A DNA stretch of 64,000 nucleotides from Dictyostelium discoideum (lineage: Eukaryota): contig CM000155.2 of the NCBI GenBank assembly GCA_000004695.1, positions 3,232,001 to 3,296,000 on the forward strand. The letters are read 5' to 3'. Positions 838 through 14,115 of this stretch are shown here, one piece after another (the first letter of the stretch is position 1; every line of letters starts with the position of its first letter). Under the pieces are notes generated by a model that was not told the origin of the DNA, did not search any database, and saw only the letters and a program-made list of their open reading frames with translations. Made by a program: the position numbers and the translations under genes.

Positions 838-1478
838 CTGAAATAATAAATAAATATTTATTTGAAAATTTTTTTTTTACAAGTGGTTATATAAACAAAT
901 TAATTTTGGTGTGGTAAACACAAAATAAAAATAAATTTAAATTAAATAATAAAAACACCATAAAAACAGTGTTATTTTTTATTTATTTTAAAATAAATTT
1001 ATGTGATTCTTTTTTTTTAATCCAGCAAAACGTCAACGGAGGTATCTCAATCAATCACTATTTTCTAAATATTAATTTTTTATTATTAAACCATTATATT
1101 GAATTAATTAGAATAAAAAAATAAAATAAAAAAATAAAATAAAAAATAAAATAAAATGATAAAAAAAAAAAAAAAAAAAAAGAAATTAAACAAAAATTAA
1201 AGAAAATTATTTCGAAATTGTTTTAAACAATCATACAGTTTAAAATTAAATAAATTGTTTTAAACCACCACTTTTTTAAAACATATGAAAATAAATAAGA
1301 AATAATAATAAAAAGATAAAAAAAGAATTTTTTTTTTTTTTTTTAATATTATATATTCTTGTTGTCAGTATTGTTACTATAATTAATCCCATGGGTTTTT
1401 TATTATTATTATTTTTAATTCTTTTATATTTGAGATTATTATTAATTAAATAACTTTAAGTTTTTTTTTATTTTTCTA

Positions 1479-1682
1479 TGCACAAAATTACCATATTAAT
1501 TTCGGCAGCCATATTAATTTCAGCCTAAAATAGTTTATCTGTTCTTGACAAAATTAATATGGCTGCTGAAATTAATATGGTAATTTTGGGCATAGAAAAA
1601 TAAAAAAAACTATCAGACATAAGTCCCATGCCAAAATTATCATATTAATTTCAGCAGCCATATTAATTTTGGCATGGGACAT
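1479..1682. repeat. Nested inverted/direct repeat (foldback-like). The ~40-bp unit ccatattaatttc(g/a)gcagccatattaattt occurs direct (1483-1520), inverted (1551-1591) and direct again (1631-1672). The third copy is flanked by the 10-bp inverted repeat gtcccatgcc/ggcatgggac.
   Basis: Read directly. The reverse complement of 1551-1591 matches 1479-1520 with 2 mismatches. Confidence 0.8.
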
Positions 1683-2520
1683 ATATTAAATATGATTTTT
1701 TTTTAGATCATATAAAATAAAAAAAAGTATATAAAAAAAAAAAAAAAAAAAAAAAAAAACTTTTTGTTTAAACACTAAATGATCATTAGTTTTTTAAATA
1801 TTTATTCTATTAAATAATAAACTGGTTATATACTATCAAATTTTTTTTTTTTAACGATACATAAATAATAAATAACTATAATATCAAATAAAAAAAATTT
1901 AATGATGCATTGGGTAATATCGAAAAAAATTTAAACAAAGATGCATTGAATTGGGAAGAAAAATTAACTATTAGTGATTCAGATAGTAGTGACAGTGATC
2001 CAGATACACCAATACAGGGACTTATACCAGAAAATTAACCAAAAACCACAAAAACAGTTAAACCAGTTGCAAATTAATAAACAAATAAATAAAAAAAAAA
2101 TAAATAAATAAATAAATAAAATAAAAAAAAAAAAAAAAATAAAAAAAATACAAATAACATACTAATAAATATTATTTAACGAAGTTACTATCTCTTCCAC
2201 AAAATATAAACGTAGATTTGAAAATTTCAATGAAAATGATGGTTGCTTAAAAGAGTTAATAGAAAAAGAAATTATAATTCAAAAAAATAGAAAGATTAAT
2301 TTATTGGATATTGAATTCAAACAGTATTTTAAAATACCCTGATAAATAATTAGGATACATAAATACATTTAAGCCTAAGGAAATAAATAGAAGGTAGTTT
2401 GGTCAGTGGATGAAATAATAGAACAAGAAATTAAAAATATTATGACCAATTATAATAAAAAATGATTTTTAAATAAAAAATTAAAATAAACTAACTATTT
2501 AAAGTTTGTATTTTTATTTG

Positions 2521-2621
2521 TAGCTTTTTTTTGAATTGGATAACGCAATTATTAGTTGCTTCTCCTTGAGATGCTAGATCTTATTTTATTTGTAGTTTTT
2601 TACAGATAAAAGAGGGGTTAG

Positions 2622-2630
<9 letters not shown>
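2521..2630 (+). repeat. ~100-bp repeat (copy A) ending in gaggggttagtttac followed by a 36-nt poly-T. A second copy lies upstream of the other tRNA gene (59825-59925) in the same orientation relative to the tRNA.
   Basis: ~85% identity between 2535-2630 and the reverse complement of 59825-59925 (ataacgcaattattagttgctyctccttgagatgctagatct...aaaagaggggttagtttac). Confidence 0.75.
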
Positions 2631-2667
<37 letters not shown>

Positions 2668-2949
2668 GGTTCAAATTTTGAATTGTATTATTACTTTTGA
2701 TTAAAACATCTTTTTTGTCCAAATTTTTTATTATATCATCAGCTTCATGATTGATGTTAATGACATATTTGAATTGTTTTTTTTTTATTTGAGTTTTATC
2801 CACAATTTCACTTATTTTTTGTAGGCATTTGTGTTGCTTAATATTTGTGGTGTTGTTTGTAATTTTCATCTTATTTTCTTTCTATTTTTATTTAACTTAA
2901 CCCAGAATTTTAACTTTTTTAAGTTAATCAGAAAATTTCCTTAAGTTCC

Positions 2950-2982
<33 letters not shown>

Positions 2983-3026
2983 TTTGTAGCCAAATTGATG
3001 TAAATTTTTAAAATTTCATCAAAAAT

Positions 3027-3099
3027 GCCTGGATGGCTCAGTAGGCAGAGCGAGCGGCTGTTAACCGCTAGGTCCATGGTTCGATCCCATGTCTAGGCG
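3027..3099 (+). tRNA. tRNA-Asn (anticodon GTT).
   Basis: Cloverleaf: acceptor GCCTGGA/TCTAGGC, D-arm GCTC...GAGC, anticodon stem AGCGG/CCGCT with loop CTGTTAA, T-arm CATGG-TTCGATC-CCATG, discriminator G. Confidence 0.9.
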
Positions 3100-3132
3100 A
3101 TACTTTTCTATGAGAATAGAATTAGATCGCAG

Positions 3133-3143
3133 GTTCAATTCTA
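3133..3143 (+). promoter_or_regulatory. External B box (gGTTCAATTC), 34 nt downstream of tRNA-Asn.
   Basis: Match to the B-box consensus GGTTCGANTCC outside the tRNA body. Dictyostelium tRNA genes are known to carry such ex-B boxes. Confidence 0.6.
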
Positions 3144-3365
3144 TCATTGGAATGGAAAAAAATATTATTTATTAAATAAAAGTATTTATAATTGCTTATT
3201 TCCTTTAATGGATAAACTGTGATTTATTAATTTTTATAATTAGAAAAAAAAAAAAAAAAAAAGAAAGGTTTTTAAAACAGTTTAAAACTTGTAATTTAAT
3301 AAATTTATTTATTTATTTATTTAATGTTATGATTTCAAATCAAGTAATTAGTAACACTGAAATTA

Positions 3366-4304
3366 CTAATTATAACGATTTGCATGACCATAACCTTTAT
3401 TATGACCAGCAGTAAAAGTTTTTAAAGTATAAATATACTTTTTTAAATGTGAATGATTTGGATATTGTTGTTCAAGTTTAGTTGAATATTTGTCTACTTT
3501 AATAATATATTTATTTAATAGACCAACACAATATTTTAAAGCTAAGTCAATTGAACCAAGTTGAATTGCTCTAACTTTAACAAAGTTTGTTAATAAAATT
3601 TCATTGATTTCCATTTTGAATGAACCACAATCATTGATCATTAAATTACAAAGTTCAAAATATTTAAAGAATTTTTTGAAATTTTTTGATTCTCTAATTT
3701 CATTCTCAACATATAAAGTTGAAGTACAAGAGGAAGCAGTAATTGTCATACCGAAATCACCATGTCTTGAATTGAAATAATCTTCAATGGAAAGTGATGA
3801 ATTTAATGATTTATATTTATTGGTTTTAATGGCACTTCTACTCCAATATTCAAAATCTCTAATTAATAAATCAACAGATTCTTTAACACCAACTCTATAG
3901 TATTCATCAAATAATCTCCAAATTTCACGACCAAATGGATCATGACTCTTACTTGATCTATCCATTAAATTATCCACATAATCCTCTTCATAATTACGTG
4001 ATTCATATATGTAATCATCTAAAATGAAAAGAAAATCCAACAATTTTGAATTTACCATATATTCATCCTTTTCACCCAATGGAAAATTCAAAGCAGCAAT
4101 TTTACCAATTTCATTCTTTTTTACATAATTCACAGCATTTTCATAGTTTTGAAAAAATTGTTTAACATATTCCATTTCTTGATTTTCAAAATCTTTATCA
4201 AATGGACTACTTTTAAAATCCCAAGGAAGAGTATACTTTGGAATTCTAATTTCTTGATCCAAAAATTGATTTTTATCCCAAGTAAATTTTATATCATAAT
4301 CCAT
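3366..4304 (-). CDS. Class I (microbial-type) terpene synthase, 312 aa, single exon.
   Basis: Aspartate-rich motif ILDDYIYE (DDxxD/E). NSE/DTE motif NDCGSFKME ((N,D)Dxx(S,T)xxxE). RY pair near the C-terminus (NRYN). Size and architecture fit Dictyostelium TPS genes. Confidence 0.85.
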   Translation of the reverse strand: MDYDIKFTWDKNQFLDQEIRIPKYTLPWDFKSSPFDKDFENQEMEYVKQFFQNYENAVNYVKKNEIGKIAALNFPLGEKDEYMVNSKLLDFLFILDDYIYESRNYEEDYVDNLMDRSSKSHDPFGREIWRLFDEYYRVGVKESVDLLIRDFEYWSRSAIKTNKYKSLNSSLSIEDYFNSRHGDFGMTITASSCTSTLYVENEIRESKNFKKFFKYFELCNLMINDCGSFKMEINEILLTNFVKVRAIQLGSIDLALKYCVGLLNKYIIKVDKYSTKLEQQYPNHSHLKKYIYTLKTFTAGHNKGYGHANRYN

Positions 4305-4525
4305 TTTTTTAAATTTTTTTTTTTTTTTTTTTAATAATTTTTATTTATGATTCAAAATTTTGGAAATATTTGATCAATTTAAATATAAAAAAAAAATGAT
4401 AAAAAAAAAAAAAAATAATAAAAAAAAAAAAAAAATAATAATTAAAAAAAAAAATTATTCTCTTAATTTGGAAATAAAAACAGTTTGATCCCTAATTTAT
4501 TATAAAAAATTTAAAATAAACTAAA

Positions 4526-4700
4526 ATATATTCAAACTTTTTAATATTTGTTCAACTGATGAAGATAAACTTCTTTGTTAACTACATCAGTAGAACAAAT
4601 ATTAAAAAGTTTGAATATTATTTAATTTATTTTAAATTAATATTCAAACTTTTTAATATTTGTTCAACTGATGTAGTTAACAAAGAAGATAAAATTAATT
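4526..4700. repeat. Nested palindrome / foldback structure in the TPS-P450 bidirectional promoter. Arm aatattcaaactttttaatatttgttc occurs direct (4528-4553), inverted (4593-4618) and direct again (4640-4667), with a partly palindromic core around gttaac.
   Basis: Read directly. A near-perfect hairpin is possible over 4528-4618. Confidence 0.8.
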
Positions 4701-4909
4701 AATTGAATGTTTTTATTTTGGAAATGGTCTTTTTATCCACGTAATAAACTGTTAATTAAAAAATAACAATCAGATTATAAAAAAAAAAAAATTATATTTT
4801 TAACAGATTTACCCTCAAAATATCAAAGGGGTTTTTTTTTTTTTAATTTTCCAAAAAAAAAAAAAAAAAAAAAAAAAACCAGTTGTGTTTTTTTAGGGCT
4901 TTATAAAAA

Positions 4910-5480: not shown

Positions 5481-5587
5481 GTAAGTTTGACCCCCCCCCC
5501 CCTTTTTTTTATTTATTTTTAAATTTTAATTAATAAATCATTATTAACTTTTTCTTTTTTATTTTCTATTAATAATAAAATAAATAG

Positions 5588-7889: not shown

Positions 7890-8642
7890 TAAAAAAAAAA
7901 AAAAAATAAAAAAAAAAAGTTAAAAAAGTAAATAATTTAAATTTAATAATAAATAATTAATAAAAAATAAAAATAAATGTAAATTTCATTTCATTATCAC
8001 AAAAATAAAATATATACGTTATTTTATTAATTTAAAAATTATTGTACATGTTGTGCCAAGAACTTTTATTAGAAAAATAAGATGAAATAAAATAAAATGA
8101 TCTTTATTTTATAATTTTCTTTTTAAATTTTTATTATTATTAAAATTATGAATTTTAATAATAAAATATTCAATCGACATTAATAAGTCCACGTGGTTTT
8201 TACCCACGTGGGGTGAGAAAAGTTTAATTATATAAATTTTGATAATACAAGATTTTATTGCAATAATCCAATTATAGTATTTTGATAATAAATAATTAAA
8301 TTGCATTATTCGACTAATTAATTAAATTATTTTCAATTTTATTTTTTATTTAATTTTAAATACAACATATTTAAAACTGGTTATCTTTAAAAAAAAAATA
8401 AAAAAATATTAATAGTTTTATAGTGTTTTTAAAAAAAAAAAAAAAAAATTTGGACGGATAATTGTGAAAAATTTGGACGGATAATGGTGAAAAAATAAGG
8501 ATAATCAAAAAAAACCCTTTTAATACAAAGATGGAAAAAGGGAAAACATATTTTTTAAAACTATGGAATTATCATAATGTTATTATTTCATGGATAAGGA
8601 TAATCAAAAAAAACCCTTTTAATTCAAAGATGGAAAAAGGGA

Positions 8643-8681
<39 letters not shown>

Positions 8682-9195: not shown

Positions 9196-9987
9196 ATGTC
9201 ACAAAATGAATATGACAAAAATGATTCACTTTTTAATAAATTTTCAAATAAAAATTTAACTATAGAGAATGAAACTCTACTATTTTCAATGATACCATGG
9301 GAAATTGTTAAGAATGGAAATGTTATTGATTTTGGTTGTGGTAATGGATGGTTTTGTAGAGAAATGATTGAAAAAGGTGTAAACCAAATTATTGGTGTTG
9401 ACATTTCTGAAAAATTAATTAAAAAAGCAATAGAATTAAATAAAGATAATAATGAAAAATCAAAATATTATGTCACTGATTTAGATAATTTCCAACTTAA
9501 TGAAACTCCTTTTAATTCATTAATTGGTTCATTTGATTTTGCATTTAGTTCATATTTAACTCATTATTTATCAGATTTAGAATCATTTTTTAAAAAAGTT
9601 TACAATTTATTAAAATCAAATAATAATAATGGTAGTAGTTTTATATTTTTTGCAGAACATCCAATGAGAACTTCAACAAAATGTATTGAAAATAAATTTA
9701 TTAGTCATAAATTTGAAGGTGATGAAAATTCAAAAATGGTTTGGCCAATTTCAAATTATAGTGAAGAAGGTAAAAGAGTTACTAAATGGGCTGGATCAAA
9801 TGGAATTGTTAAATATCATTATACAATTGAAACTTATGTAAACACTTTAATTAAAGTAGGTTTTAAAATTGATTATATAGGTGAATTAAATCTTGTAGAA
9901 AAACAATTACAACTTTGCAATTCTGGTGATATAACAATAGAAGCAAATAGTCCATTTACACTATTTATTAAAGTAATAAAAAATTAA
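9196..9987 (+). CDS. Class I SAM-dependent methyltransferase, paralog 2 (263 aa, no Asn tracts).
   Basis: Same motifs as 6981-7889. Tandem duplicate 2.2 kb downstream. Confidence 0.8.
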   Translation: MSQNEYDKNDSLFNKFSNKNLTIENETLLFSMIPWEIVKNGNVIDFGCGNGWFCREMIEKGVNQIIGVDISEKLIKKAIELNKDNNEKSKYYVTDLDNFQLNETPFNSLIGSFDFAFSSYLTHYLSDLESFFKKVYNLLKSNNNNGSSFIFFAEHPMRTSTKCIENKFISHKFEGDENSKMVWPISNYSEEGKRVTKWAGSNGIVKYHYTIETYVNTLIKVGFKIDYIGELNLVEKQLQLCNSGDITIEANSPFTLFIKVIKN

Positions 9988-11241: not shown

Positions 11242-13134
11242 ATGACATCAATTGGTATAGATTTAGGAACAACATATTCTTGTGTTGGTGTTTGGTTGAA
11301 TGATCGTGTTGAAATTATTGCAAATGATCAAGGTAATAGAACTACTCCATCATATGTTGCATTCAATGATACAGAGCGTTTAATTGGTGATGCTGCAAAG
11401 AATCAAGTTGCAATGAATCCAATAAATACAGTTTTCGATGCAAAACGTTTAATTGGTAGGAAATTTTCAGATAGTGTTGTTCAAAGTGATATGAAACATT
11501 GGCCATTTAAAGTTATAACAAATAAAAACGATGATAAACCATTAATTCAAGTTGATTTCAAAGGTGAAACTAAAACATTCTCACCTGAAGAAATTTCATC
11601 AATGGTATTATCAAAAATGAAAGAAACTGCTGAATCATATTTAGGTAAACCTGTTAACAATGCAGTTATAACAGTTCCAGCTTATTTCAATGATGGACAA
11701 CGTCAAGCAACTAAGGATGCTGGTACAATTTCAAAATTAAATGTTCAACGTATCATTAATGAACCAAGTGCTGCTGCTATTGCATATGGTTTAGATAAGA
11801 AAGGTAGTAAAAGTGGTGAAATAAAAGTTTTAATATTCGATTTGGGTGGTGGTACATTTGATGTTTCATTACTATCAATTGATGATGGTGTATTTGAAGT
11901 TTTAGCAACAGCTGGTGATACTCATTTAGGTGGTGAAGATTTTGATAATCGTTTAGTGAATCACTTTGTAGATGAATTCAAACGTAAACATAAGAAGGAT
12001 ATAATGGGTAACCAACGTGCTCTTCGTCGTTTGAGAACTGCATGTGAACGTGCAAAAAGAACACTATCATCATCATCTCAAGCATCAGTTGAAATTGATT
12101 CACTTTATGATGGTATTGATTTCTATACCTCAATTACCAGAGCACGTTTTGAAGAACTTTGTTCTGACCTTTTCAATAATTGTATTGAACCAGTTGAAAA
12201 AGTTTTAAAAGATTGTAAATTGGATAAGAAATCAATAGATGAAATTGTATTAGTTGGTGGTTCAACTCGTATTCCAAAAGTTCAACAATTAATTCAAAAT
12301 CTTTTCAATGGTAAAGAATTAAATAAATCAATTAATCCTGACGAAGCCGTTGCATATGGTGCAGCAGTACAAGCTGCTATTCTATCAGGTGATAAAAGCT
12401 CAAGAATCTCTGAATTAATTTTCATTGATGTTGCACCATTATCATTGGGTATTGAAACTGTTGGTGGTGTAATGACAAACATCGTTCCAAGAAACACAAT
12501 TATCCCATGTAAAAAGACACAAACTTTTTCAACTCACACAGATAATCAAAGTGGTGTTTTAATTCAAGTTTATGAGGGTGAACGTACAATGACAAAAGAT
12601 AATAATCTATTGGGTAAATTTGAATTAACTGGTATCCCACCAGCACCACGTGGTACACCTCAAATTGAAGTTAGTTTCGATGTTGATAGTAATGGTATTT
12701 TAAATGTTACAGCTGAAGATAAAACTACTAAAAAAGTTGAAAAAATAACTATCACCAATGACAAAGGTCGTCTCTCTCTAAAAGATATTACTAAAATGGT
12801 TGAAGATGCAGAGAAATTTAAAGAACAAGATCAACAACAAAAAGAACGTATTGAATCAAAGAATAATCTTGAAAACTATATATTTTCTGTAAAAAATTCA
12901 ATTAATGACCAGAAAATCATTTCAAAACTCTCTAAATCTGATAAAAATATTATTGAATCTGAAACTGAAAGTACTCTTAAATGGTTAGAATCAAATCAAT
13001 CTGCCGAAAAGGATGAATTTAATCAAAAGATATCAGATCTTGAATCAATTGTTAACCCAATCCTTAGTAAATTCTATCAAGGTAATAATAATCCAAAACC
13101 AACCACAACTACTTTTAACCAAGATCTTGATTAA
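11242..13134 (+). CDS. Hsp70 family chaperone (630 aa, single exon). The C-terminus is ...FNQDLD rather than EEVD.
   Basis: [36 protein letters not shown] and SBD motifs across the full length. Confidence 0.95.
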
Positions 13135-13643
13135 AATTAAATATATAAATTTCAGTGTAAAAAAATAAAAAAATTAAATATACATTCCATAAAGTTTTCC
13201 TTTTCCCAATCATTTCTCTACAAAACCATCCATTACTACAAATAATAATTTTCTAAAATATCAAAAAAAAAATAAAAAAAAAAAATAAAAAAAAAAATAA
13301 AAAAAAAAAAAAATTTATTAATTTTTTTTTGGAGTGACAGAATTCTGTTCTGTTCTGTGGTTGTATTTAAATTCAATTATATTCTCATTTTAATTATATT
13401 GATATTTGTAGTCATTTAAATATTTTTAGTGGTAGACTTCAAATGATCTTTCTTTGAACATTTGTTGAGTTTTGTAATATATAAAACAAATATTTATCTG
13501 TTTTGGTAACTTTTTATTTAATTGTTTTTATTTGAAAAAAAAAAATAAAATAAAATAAAGAATTAAAAATAAAAAATAAATTAGAAAATTAAAATAACGA
13601 AATATTAAATGAAAAAAGGGGTAAAAATATCTTTATTTTATTT

Positions 13644-13674
<31 letters not shown>

Positions 13675-14115
13675 GACACAGAGTTTGTGGTTTTAATAAA
13701 TAAAAACGAATTTGTTTATCATTAATTTGAAATTTCATTTTTTTATAATTTTATCCGTTTTTGTATAATTTGTCAAAAATGTATATTTATAAATGAAACA
13801 AAGAATTTGTTTACTTGAAATTCTATTGTGGTTAAATTTTTGACTTTGTAGGATTGTAATTTAAATTACAAATTATAATAATTTGGAAAAAATAGATTTT
13901 CAATTTAATTATTTTTTTTTTAAAAAAAAAAAAAAAGTATAAATTAAAAATAAATTTTAATGTTTTATTTCATTCACAAATTATTTAATTACAAAATAAA
14001 ATAACAAAAATAAAATGACACTCTTTTGTAAGAATTTAATTATATTTTTTATTTAATTTAAAAATAAAGTTACTAATTTATTTATTTTAAAAAACTATTA
14101 GCTTCAATCTCATCA

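What the first reader, a model, noticed from the sequence alone, without database searches (positions are those of the whole stretch)
1479..1682. Second foldback-like structure with a direct-inverted-direct repeat and a 10-bp terminal inverted repeat
The unit ccatattaatttc(g/a)gcagccatattaattt itself contains an internal direct repeat of ccatattaattt. It occurs three times (direct, inverted, direct) within 200 bp. The third copy is bracketed by gtcccatgcc ... ggcatgggac. The sequence is unrelated to the 4526-4700 palindrome but has the same architecture. It looks like a miniature non-autonomous foldback element or the recombination scar of one.
Basis: seen in the sequence. Interest (0 to 1): 0.55.

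Follow-up and report, generated by a model that had tools for sequence, protein, structure and literature searches.

The report
Transposon-derived microRNA hairpin copy in Dictyostelium
The three-copy foldback is real, but it is a diverged, unlisted copy of a known multi-copy hairpin of the Dictyostelium thug-S DNA transposon, which is already known to yield Dicer-dependent small RNAs, so it is largely ordinary.

Summary
The window is Dictyostelium discoideum (AX4-type). The finding lies between a ComC-like gene and tRNA-Asn/TPS8.

- A ~50-nt unit occurs three times, direct, inverted, direct: U1 1477-1526, U2 1546-1594, U3 1626-1677.
- U1/U2 form a 59-nt, 97% complementary hairpin with a 30-nt loop. 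U2/U3 form a competing 44-nt hairpin.
- U3 carries a perfect 17-bp inverted repeat, longer than the 10 bp reported.

The sequence belongs to a known family:
- Rfam RF03716 (mir-7131) matches 1554-1666 on both strands at 73.8 and 73.6 bits (gathering score 74, E about 1e-16). The arms are close to the consensus (about 90% by eye).
- The published small RNA miRNA_can_D3 (AUUAAUUUCGGCAGCCAUAUU, Meier 2016) matches 1495-1515 exactly.
- Its partner 23-mer matches 1558-1580 with one mismatch, in the same order and with the same 42-nt gap as at all six published loci.
- Those loci are described as lying in the intron of the thug-S DNA transposon, and the small RNA as RbdB-dependent.

The module is absent from four other Dictyostelium genomes at this locus. 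No target-site duplication was seen. Whether it is a whole thug-S, a fragment or a solo module could not be tested.

The neighbouring palindrome (4508-4707) has a different origin. It is a lineage-specific inverted triplication of a sequence that is single-copy in other strains.

Interest is low.

The parts
1459..1520 (+). Copy U1 (unit core 1477-1526) plus a 19-nt T-rich flank. This is the left arm of the large hairpin. It contains the exact 21-mer ATTAATTTCGGCAGCCATATT at 1495-1515.
   Evidence: pair I1: 59 nt, 97% complementary. (0 mismatches to miRNA_can_D3 '3p' of Meier 2016). (alignment of the three copies with the Rfam arm consensus).
1521..1550 (.). 30-nt loop of the U1/U2 hairpin.
   Evidence: The gap between the two small-RNA-matching stretches (1515 to 1558) is 42 nt. 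The same 42-nt gap is found at all six published D3 loci.
1551..1611 (-). Copy U2 (inverted; unit core 1546-1594) plus an A-rich flank. It is the right arm of the U1/U2 hairpin and the left arm of the U2/U3 hairpin. It contains TATGGCTGCTGAAATTAATATGG at 1558-1580 on the + strand.
   Evidence: pairs I1, I2. (1 mismatch to the miRNA_can_D3 '5p' 23-mer). (5' arm of the mir-7131 match).
1595..1625 (.). A-rich spacer between U2 and U3. It acts as the enlarged loop of the mir-7131-type hairpin: 34-41 nt in the model alignment, against 8-14 nt in the family consensus. Its first ~17 nt (1595-1611) also lie in the A-rich flank of the U2 part and pair with the left flank of U1.
   Evidence: loop *[34]* and *[41]* against *[8]* and *[14]*..
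1623..1680 (+). Copy U3 (direct; unit core 1626-1677) with its own perfect 17-bp inverted repeat, 1623-1639 / 1664-1680. It contains ATTAATTTCAGCAGCCATATT at 1644-1664.
   Evidence: (self-hairpin -26.6 kcal/mol, z = -6.7). (1 mismatch to the 21-mer).
1554..1666 (.). Match to Rfam RF03716 (mir-7131 precursor) on both strands, formed by U2 + U3.
   Evidence: 73.8 bits (-) and 73.6 bits (+), gathering score 74, E = 1.2e-16 and 1.4e-16, model positions 1-84 of 84. The arms are close to the consensus.
985..2149 (.). Surrounding 1.2-kb segment. It is present in the window and in L001 (the same lineage). It has no detectable counterpart in the orthologous intergenic region of two divergent D. discoideum strains (L003, L004) or two D. 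cf. discoideum genomes (L002, L005). It may be a thug-S copy or remnant, but this could not be tested.
   Evidence: It contains a 57-codon open frame (1865-2035; coding-like stretch about 45 codons, 1898-2034; stop 2035-2037) with no homologues.

Best explanation
The block 1459-1680 is a copy, about 90% similar to the family consensus, of the palindromic module carried by the Dictyostelium discoideum thug-S DNA transposon. This is the module behind the Rfam family mir-7131 and the small-RNA pair called miRNA_can_D3.

The unit is roughly ATGCC-AAAATTA-YCATATTAATTTC-RGCAG-CCATATTAATTT-TGGCAT. The internal CCATATTAATTT duplication is also present in the family consensus, so it is a family feature. 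The three units lie direct, inverted, direct. The middle copy can therefore pair with either neighbour:
- U1/U2 reproduces the geometry of the published D3 loci: 21-mer, 42-nt gap, 23-mer, including the C-G-G / C-T-G wobble.
- U2/U3 reproduces the mir-7131 arrangement, but with an enlarged loop.

Shown here: the homology to the family, the layout, the strong fold, and the absence from other strains at this locus.

Taken from the literature: the family is multi-copy, sits in thug-S, and gives about 21-23-nt RNAs. These are lost in rbdB- cells and raised in agnA- cells.

Inferred: the module arrived here as part of, or as a fragment of, a thug-S insertion in the lineage of this strain. If the region is transcribed, the hairpins would be cut by the DrnB/RbdB processing complex into small RNAs identical or nearly identical to those from bona fide thug-S copies.
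For: - Rfam RF03716 mir-7131 matches 1554-1664(-) and 1556-1666(+) at 73.8 and 73.6 bits, E about 1e-16, over the full model. In the printed alignment most arm positions match the consensus.
- The control palindrome at 4508-4707 gets only unspecific matches of 35 bits or less, and none to mir-7131.
- Meier et al. 2016 (PMC4894637) Table 2 lists AUUAAUUUCGGCAGCCAUAUU and UAUGGCUGCUGAAAUUAAUGUGG. These map at 1495-1515 (0 mismatches) and 1558-1580 (1 mismatch) on the + strand.
- In their S3 and S4 tables the 21-mer lies 42 nt 5' of the 23-mer at all six loci, on chr2 (three), chr3 and chr5 (two). The window has the same 42-nt gap.
[quoted passage not shown] Its counts were 68/47 reads in AX2, 4/32 in rbdB- and 168/334 in agnA-.
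- Thug elements are a DNA transposon family making up about 0.1% of the genome.
- All three local copies align with both Rfam arm consensi.
- The module is absent from L002-L005 (up to 5 edits). It is identical in L001, which is 99.76% identical to the window.
Against: - The Rfam score is 0.2 bit below the curated gathering score. The U2/U3 loop is 34-41 nt, against 8-14 nt in the family.
- Chromosome 6 is not among the six D3 loci listed by Meier, and the 23-mer differs by one base.
- No thug-S reference sequence, D. discoideum genome or small-RNA data set could be searched here. It is therefore unproven that the flanks 985-1458 and 1681-2149 are thug-S, that the direct-inverted-direct layout is the canonical thug-S layout, or that this locus is expressed.
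- That RF03716 was built from D. discoideum (ddi-mir-7131) sequences is my recollection plus inference from the close match to the consensus. It was not confirmed from a held document.
- The 5p/3p labels in Meier's tables conflict with their coordinates. I relied on the coordinates.
Confidence: 0.75

Rival explanations
1. A locally generated palindrome. Replication template switching (fold-back copying) duplicated and inverted a pre-existing local sequence, as happened at 4508-4707, with no transposon involved.
For: The neighbouring structure with the same direct-inverted-direct layout is demonstrably of this kind. It is single-copy in L002, L003 and L004, and its middle copy is the reverse complement of that single-copy segment. 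At 1459-1680 the U1/U2 complementarity extends 19 nt beyond the family unit into A/T-rich flank that also forms part of the enlarged U2/U3 loop. Some local remodelling is therefore plausible.
Against: The unit is not locally unique sequence. It is close to the consensus of a multi-copy family (about 90% by eye) and contains an exact published 21-mer. The U1/U2 spacing (42-nt gap) equals that at six unlinked loci, so that hairpin was inherited, not made here. No single-copy ancestral state is visible in any other genome.
Confidence: 0.1
2. An independent miniature foldback or MITE-like element: the ~220-bp block, or the 58-bp U3 hairpin with its 17-bp terminal inverted repeats, transposes on its own, separately from full-length thug-S.
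For: The ends are palindromic. The family is multi-copy according to the literature. The block is present in one lineage and absent at the orthologous region in four other genomes. No thug-S-like open reading frame could be recognised next to it.
Against: On inspection of the sequence, I saw no direct repeat of 4 bp or more flanking 1459-1611, 1459-1680 or 1623-1680. This was not computed. No clean empty site exists, because 985-2149 as a whole is unalignable in the other strains, not just the hairpin. No solo copies were available for comparison. The published copies are described as lying inside thug-S, not as free-standing elements.
Confidence: 0.12
3. A host regulatory element: six CCATATTAATTT motifs acting as a protein-binding array or an origin/insulator near the tRNA gene.
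For: Six copies of a 12-mer lie within 180 bp. The location is intergenic, 1.4 kb upstream of tRNA-Asn.
Against: The motif duplication is part of the transposon family consensus. The block is missing in other strains that keep the same flanking genes, so it is not a conserved host element.
Confidence: 0.03

Closest known systems
Rfam RF03716, mir-7131 microRNA precursor family (as I recall, ddi-mir-7131 paralogues from Avesson et al. 2012, thug-S-derived)
   Same: The arm sequences are close to the consensus over all 84 model positions, on both strands. They share the internal CCATATTAATTT duplication. E is about 1e-16.
   Different: The terminal loop is 34-41 nt instead of 8-14 nt. The score is 0.2 bit under the gathering score. 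An extra inverted copy (U1) competes for the shared arm and gives the more stable fold (-77.3 against -65.5 kcal/mol).
miRNA_can_D3 of Meier et al. 2016 (PLoS Genet, PMC4894637), a thug-S intron hairpin at six loci
   Same: The 21-mer is identical. The 23-mer matches at 22 of 23 positions. The order, the 42-nt gap and the G·U wobble position are the same.
   Different: The locus is on chromosome 6 and is not in their list. There is one base difference in the 23-mer. It is unknown whether this copy sits inside a thug-S gene model.
Template-switch (fold-back) mutations that create hairpins de novo, described in other organisms as a source of new hairpin RNA genes (from my own knowledge, not checked here)
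   Same: The layout is direct-inverted-direct. The neighbouring 4508-4707 structure is a clear example.
   Different: Here the repeated unit is a pre-existing multi-copy family sequence with conserved spacing. It is not a reverse-complement copy of unique local DNA.
Foldback elements and MITEs
   Same: Small, non-coding, strongly palindromic, transposon-related.
   Different: No target-site duplication, no demonstrated solo mobility, and no defined termini.

Membership tests
Rfam RF03716 mir-7131 | Covariance-model score at or above the curated gathering score (74 bits) | tested here: not met
   73.8 bits (-) and 73.6 bits (+), E 1.2e-16 and 1.4e-16. The gathering-threshold scan did not list it. 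The shortfall of 0.2 bit goes with the enlarged loop.
Rfam RF03716 mir-7131 | Arm sequences homologous to the family consensus | tested here: met
   In the printed alignment most arm positions match the consensus across model positions 1-84. All three local copies align with both arm consensi. The control palindrome gives no such hit.
Rfam RF03716 mir-7131 | Short terminal loop (8-14 nt in the model alignment) | tested here: not met
   34-41 nt here.
miRNA_can_D3 (Meier 2016) | Both small-RNA sequences present in the published order and spacing | tested here: met
   The 21-mer is exact at 1495-1515. The 23-mer has 1 mismatch at 1558-1580. The gap is 42 nt, as at all six listed loci.
miRNA_can_D3 / bona fide miRNA | Small RNAs of about 21 nt produced from this locus, dependent on DrnB/RbdB | not testable with these tools
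   No read data are available. The published reads would map to several loci. Chromosome 6 is not in the published locus list.
thug-S DNA transposon | Hairpin lies in the intron of the thug-S open reading frame, with element termini present | not testable with these tools
   No thug-S reference was obtainable: Glockner 2001 and Avesson 2012 are not held. The only coding-like stretch nearby (about 1865-2037) has no homologues. The flanks have no other copies in 170 kb of Dictyostelium DNA held.
thug-S DNA transposon | Multi-copy in the genome | not tested
   Literature only: six D3 loci, 'multicopy', Thug about 0.1% of the genome. There is no second copy in this 64-kb window.
Foldback element / MITE | Target-site duplication flanking terminal inverted repeats | tested here: not met
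   By inspection only, not computed. The flanks are AATAACTTTA|...|ATCAGACATA (1459-1611) and ...|ATATATTAAA (to 1680). I saw no direct repeat of 4 bp or more. Matches of 2-3 bp are meaningless at 79% A+T.
Foldback element / MITE | Empty sites at orthologous or paralogous loci | tested here: inconclusive
   The module is absent in L002-L005. However, the whole of 985-2149 is unalignable there, so no precise empty site can be defined.
Template-switch inverted duplication | Outgroup shows a single forward copy of the duplicated segment | tested here: inconclusive
   Met for 4508-4707. For 1459-1680 no outgroup carries any copy. The unit is family-derived, not unique local sequence.

The most novel reading that the evidence does not exclude
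This chromosome-6 block is a free-standing, lineage-specific derivative of the thug-S hairpin. It would have been detached from the transposon and remodelled locally: a third copy and an enlarged loop, so that the middle arm can switch partners. It would be transcribed from host sequence, possibly as the 3' region or a predicted intron of the adjacent ComC-like gene. In that case it would act as a host-side generator of small RNAs that silence thug-S in trans, or as a young miRNA gene caught being born from a transposon in Amoebozoa.
Probability: 0.12. Interest if true: 0.45.

Novelty: new member of a known kind. Interest (0 to 1): 0.2.

Why it matters
It matters little for biology at large. 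The result identifies an apparently unlisted, diverged paralogue of a transposon-derived miRNA/siRNA hairpin family in D. discoideum. Its arrangement is informative: one arm is shared between two alternative hairpins.

For people working on Dictyostelium small RNAs it is one more locus to which the thug-S-derived reads can map. It could serve as a test case for how transposon hairpins decay or are co-opted.

The contrast with the neighbouring palindrome, a dated de novo inverted triplication, shows that two look-alike foldbacks 3 kb apart have entirely different origins.

Tried and rejected
- **Known miRNA lists.** The core 11-mers of the unit (and, for Meier 2016, two flank 14-mers) were searched in the supplements of Liao 2018, Edelbroek 2024 and Meier 2016, without hits. 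The Meier main-text table did give the match.
- **Full-text search for the sequence.** It found only an unrelated C. difficile paper and then Meier 2016. 'mir-7131' occurs in no held paper.
- **Public collections.** Scans of metagenome, viral and GTDB contigs for the 29-mer and a degenerate 21-mer gave nothing, or single chance matches without a partner arm. None of these collections holds Dictyostelium.
- **Conservation and covariation.** This approach was abandoned. The only genome with the block (L001) is 99.76% identical to the window. The four others lack the block and are unalignable across 985-2149.
- **Reaching canonical thug-S copies through the coding-like stretch at 1865-2037.** There were no word-sharing candidates. 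The exhaustive HMMER search returned only a spurious bacterial repeat protein. tblastn on all held loci found nothing.
- **Using the last protein search on the ComC-like C-terminus.** The aim was to check whether the AX4 gene model spans the hairpin. It returned only short paralogues.
- **Terminal inverted repeats or long direct repeats bounding 985-2149.** Only low-complexity matches were found. A 70% match to L005 8388-8552 is T-rich low complexity.
- **My initial working idea.** I first thought the whole structure was a local template-switch product, like 4508-4707. I rejected this as the primary explanation once the family match and the conserved 42-nt spacing appeared.
- **Papers not held.** Glockner 2001 and Avesson 2012 are not in the library. 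Eichinger 2005 is not held either.

Full report
**Where we are.** The window is 21% G+C and carries long A/T runs. The open reading frame at 3366-4304(-) is identical to terpene synthase 8 of Dictyostelium discoideum AX4 (Q54BE5 / XP_629084.1). A 3.6-Mb contig of a D. discoideum assembly (L001) is 99.76% identical to the first 14.3 kb of the window.

The finding lies in a 2.3-kb non-coding stretch. On one side is the stop codon (743-745) of a ComC-like surface-protein gene. On the other is tRNA-Asn (3026-3100), which is followed by TPS8 and a P450 gene.

**The observation.**
- The 29-mer CATATTAATTTCRGCAGCCATATTAATTT occurs three times, +, -, +, and nowhere else in 64 kb. The chance expectation is 0.00.
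- Each copy holds CCATATTAATTT twice.
- The copies are longer than reported. Aligned, they share about 50 nt: ATGC(A/C)CAAAATTA(C/T)CATATTAATTTC(G/A)GCAGCCATATTAATTT followed by T/C-rich ends.
- I call them U1 (1477-1526, +), U2 (1546-1594, inverted) and U3 (1626-1677, +).
- U1 and U2, each with 19 nt of flank, form arms of 59 nt that are 97% complementary, with a 30-nt loop. U2 and U3 form arms of 44 nt that are 95% complementary.
- U3 is bracketed by a perfect 17-bp inverted repeat, 1623-1639 / 1664-1680.

Folding:

| Region folded | Free energy (kcal/mol) | z-score |
|---|---|---|
| 1455-1700, RNA, + strand | -105.2 | -16.8 |
| 1455-1700, RNA, - strand | -109.8 | -15.9 |
| 1455-1700, single-stranded DNA | -76 | -16.9 |
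| U1/U2 alone | -77.3 | -17.0 |
| U2/U3 alone | -65.5 | -11.6 |
| U3 alone | -26.6 | -6.7 |

The two large hairpins are mutually exclusive because they share U2. In the whole-region fold, U1/U2 wins and U3 folds on itself. Only this locus and 4508-4707 hold long inverted repeats of normal sequence complexity in the window.

**What it is.** At Rfam's curated thresholds only the two tRNAs are reported. With an E-value threshold, the region 1554-1666 matches RF03716 (mir-7131 precursor) on both strands: 73.8 and 73.6 bits against a gathering score of 74, E about 1e-16.

This is not the generic score that any perfect hairpin earns. In the printed alignment most arm positions match the consensus. 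That consensus reads aauauGGCuGCuGaaauuaauauGguaAuucugG ... CcagaauuacCauauuaauuuCaGCaaCCauauuAA. The main departure is a loop of 34-41 nt instead of 8-14 nt. The neighbouring palindrome, used as a control, gets only unspecific hits of 35 bits or less.

Independently, Table 2 of Meier et al. 2016 (PMC4894637) lists a small-RNA pair, miRNA_can_D3: AUUAAUUUCGGCAGCCAUAUU and UAUGGCUGCUGAAAUUAAUGUGG.
- The first is found exactly at 1495-1515 in U1. The second is found with one mismatch at 1558-1580 in U2, both on the + strand.
- Their S3 and S4 tables place the 21-mer 42 nt upstream of the 23-mer at each of six loci, on chromosomes 2, 3 and 5. The window has the same order and the same 42-nt gap.
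- The authors' 5p/3p labels disagree with their own coordinates. I relied on the coordinates.
- The C-G-G / C-T-G wobble between the two published RNAs is also reproduced between U1 and U2.

[quoted passage not shown] It adds that thug-S-derived miRNAs had already been published by Avesson et al. 2012. Read counts fall in rbdB- cells and rise in agnA- cells. Liao et al. [quoted passage not shown] Thug elements are one of three DNA-transposon families of D. discoideum and make up about 0.1% of the genome.

I believe RF03716 was built from the ddi-mir-7131 entries of Avesson 2012. I could not confirm this from a held document. It rests on memory and on the close match to the consensus.

So U1/U2 has the geometry of the published D3 hairpin, and U2/U3 has the arrangement of the Rfam mir-7131 hairpin. 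Both are attributed to thug-S. This makes it likely, though unproven here, that the direct-inverted-direct layout and the internal 12-mer duplication are properties of the transposon family, not of this locus.

**Comparison with other genomes.** Four further genomes carry the TPS8 neighbourhood:
- L003 and L004 are D. discoideum strains. The ComC-like 3' end is about 95% identical to the window.
- L002 and L005 are D. cf. discoideum.

None contains the unit within 20 kb, allowing up to 5 edits. None has a comparable inverted repeat in the orthologous spacer.

This is not a clean empty site. The whole of about 985-2149 has no counterpart there. L003 and L004 instead carry one or two small genes, of which the window retains only a decayed 3' fragment at about 2160-2470. 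The block therefore arrived, or the alternative was lost, in the lineage of this strain, as part of a larger rearrangement.

Inspecting the sequence, I saw no target-site duplication around 1459-1611, 1459-1680 or 1623-1680. No terminal repeats bound the 1.2-kb segment beyond low-complexity matches.

**How it most likely works.**
- Shown here: homology to the family, three units with a shared middle arm, and very stable alternative hairpins.
- From the literature: hairpins of this family yield RNAs of about 21-23 nt that depend on the RbdB/DrnB processing complex.
- Inferred: this copy is a thug-S-derived insertion or remnant. If it is transcribed, it would be diced into RNAs identical (21 of 21) or nearly identical (22 of 23) to those of other copies. 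These would add to the pool that can act on thug-S transcripts.

T-runs of the kind that precede Dictyostelium transcription start sites lie on both sides (1327-1344 on the + strand; the A-run 1733-1760 read on the - strand). Such runs are ubiquitous in these spacers and prove nothing. The gene caller for L001 even joined a coding-like stretch downstream of the hairpin (ending at about 2037) to the ComC-like gene, which places the hairpin in a predicted 1.2-kb intron. I regard that model as doubtful.

**Rivals.**
- A purely local template-switch origin is attractive because the neighbouring 4508-4707 structure is exactly that. There, L002, L003 and L004 have one forward copy. The window has forward copy, reverse complement of about 75 nt of the same segment, then forward copy again. 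At 1459-1680 the unit belongs to a family and the spacing is conserved at unlinked loci. Local events can at most explain the enlarged U2/U3 loop and the 19-nt flank shared by U1 and U2.
- An autonomous miniature foldback element is not excluded, but it lacks a target-site duplication and any solo sister copy.
- A host regulatory array is contradicted by the absence of the block from strains that keep the same genes.

**Novelty and score.** The kind is known: a transposon-derived miRNA/siRNA hairpin, with a named Rfam family and published small RNAs. This particular chromosome-6 copy is not in the published locus list and falls a hair below the Rfam threshold. I file it as a new (unlisted, diverged) member of a known kind. 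Interest is 0.2.

The main limitation is that no D. discoideum genome, thug-S consensus or read data could be searched. The decisive checks are listed under next steps.

Noticed in passing
window 4508-4707: The second palindrome is a lineage-specific inverted triplication. L002, L003 and L004 carry a single forward copy (...ATATTCAAACTTTTTAA.ATTTGTTCAACTGATG..GTT.A.AACAAAGAAGATAAA...). The window and L001 have forward copy, reverse complement of about 75 nt of that same segment, then forward copy again. This is a datable de novo hairpin of the template-switch type, sitting in the divergent TPS8/P450 promoter region. It has no Rfam family match (35 bits or less, unspecific).
   Followed up: yes
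window 2491-2990: About 470-500 bp are present in the window but absent from L003 and L004. The segment ends about 36 bp upstream of tRNA-Asn. It is bounded by the direct repeat TTTTTATTTGTAGC (2505-2524 / 2971-2990, spacing 466) and contains two long T-runs. It looks like a remnant of a tRNA-gene-targeted retroelement (TRE5 or DGLT-A type). It was not identified.
   Followed up: partly
L005 8566-9361: D. cf. discoideum carries an ~800-bp insertion in the TPS8-P450 spacer. It has 86-nt terminal inverted repeats that are 95% complementary (8566-8651 / 9276-9361). The insertion is absent from the window and from L002-L004. It is probably a small DNA transposon.
   Followed up: partly
window 2160-2470; L003 11469-13198; L004 11421-12770: The window holds only a decayed 3' fragment, with in-frame stops, of a small gene. 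That gene is intact and tandemly duplicated in L003 (215 and 247 aa) and present in L004 (267 aa). It has no Pfam hit. A related copy lies in L002 at 12558-13704.
   Followed up: partly
window 1865-2037 (+): A coding-like open frame (...NDALGNIEKNLNKDALNWEEKLTISDSDSSDSDPDTPIQGLIPEN*) has no start codon and no upstream AG acceptor. It has no homologue in 5.8 billion proteins (word search) or 1.8 billion cluster representatives (HMMER). The L001 gene model uses its end as the last exon of the ComC-like gene, across a 1.2-kb 'intron' that contains the hairpins.
   Followed up: yes
window 3125-3145: The sequence GCAGGTTCAATTCTATC lies about 30 nt downstream of tRNA-Asn. It resembles the external B-box typical of Dictyostelium tRNA genes (from my own knowledge, not tested).
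   Followed up: no
window 5491-5502: A run of 12 C lies at the start of the first P450 intron (gtaagtttgaCCCCCCCCCCCCtttttttt). This is unusual in a genome of 21% G+C.
   Followed up: no
Meier et al. 2016, S3/S4 tables against Table 2: The 5p/3p labels of miRNA_can_D3 are inconsistent with the listed coordinates and strands. The RNA called '3p' lies 5' of the one called '5p' at all six loci.
   Followed up: partly
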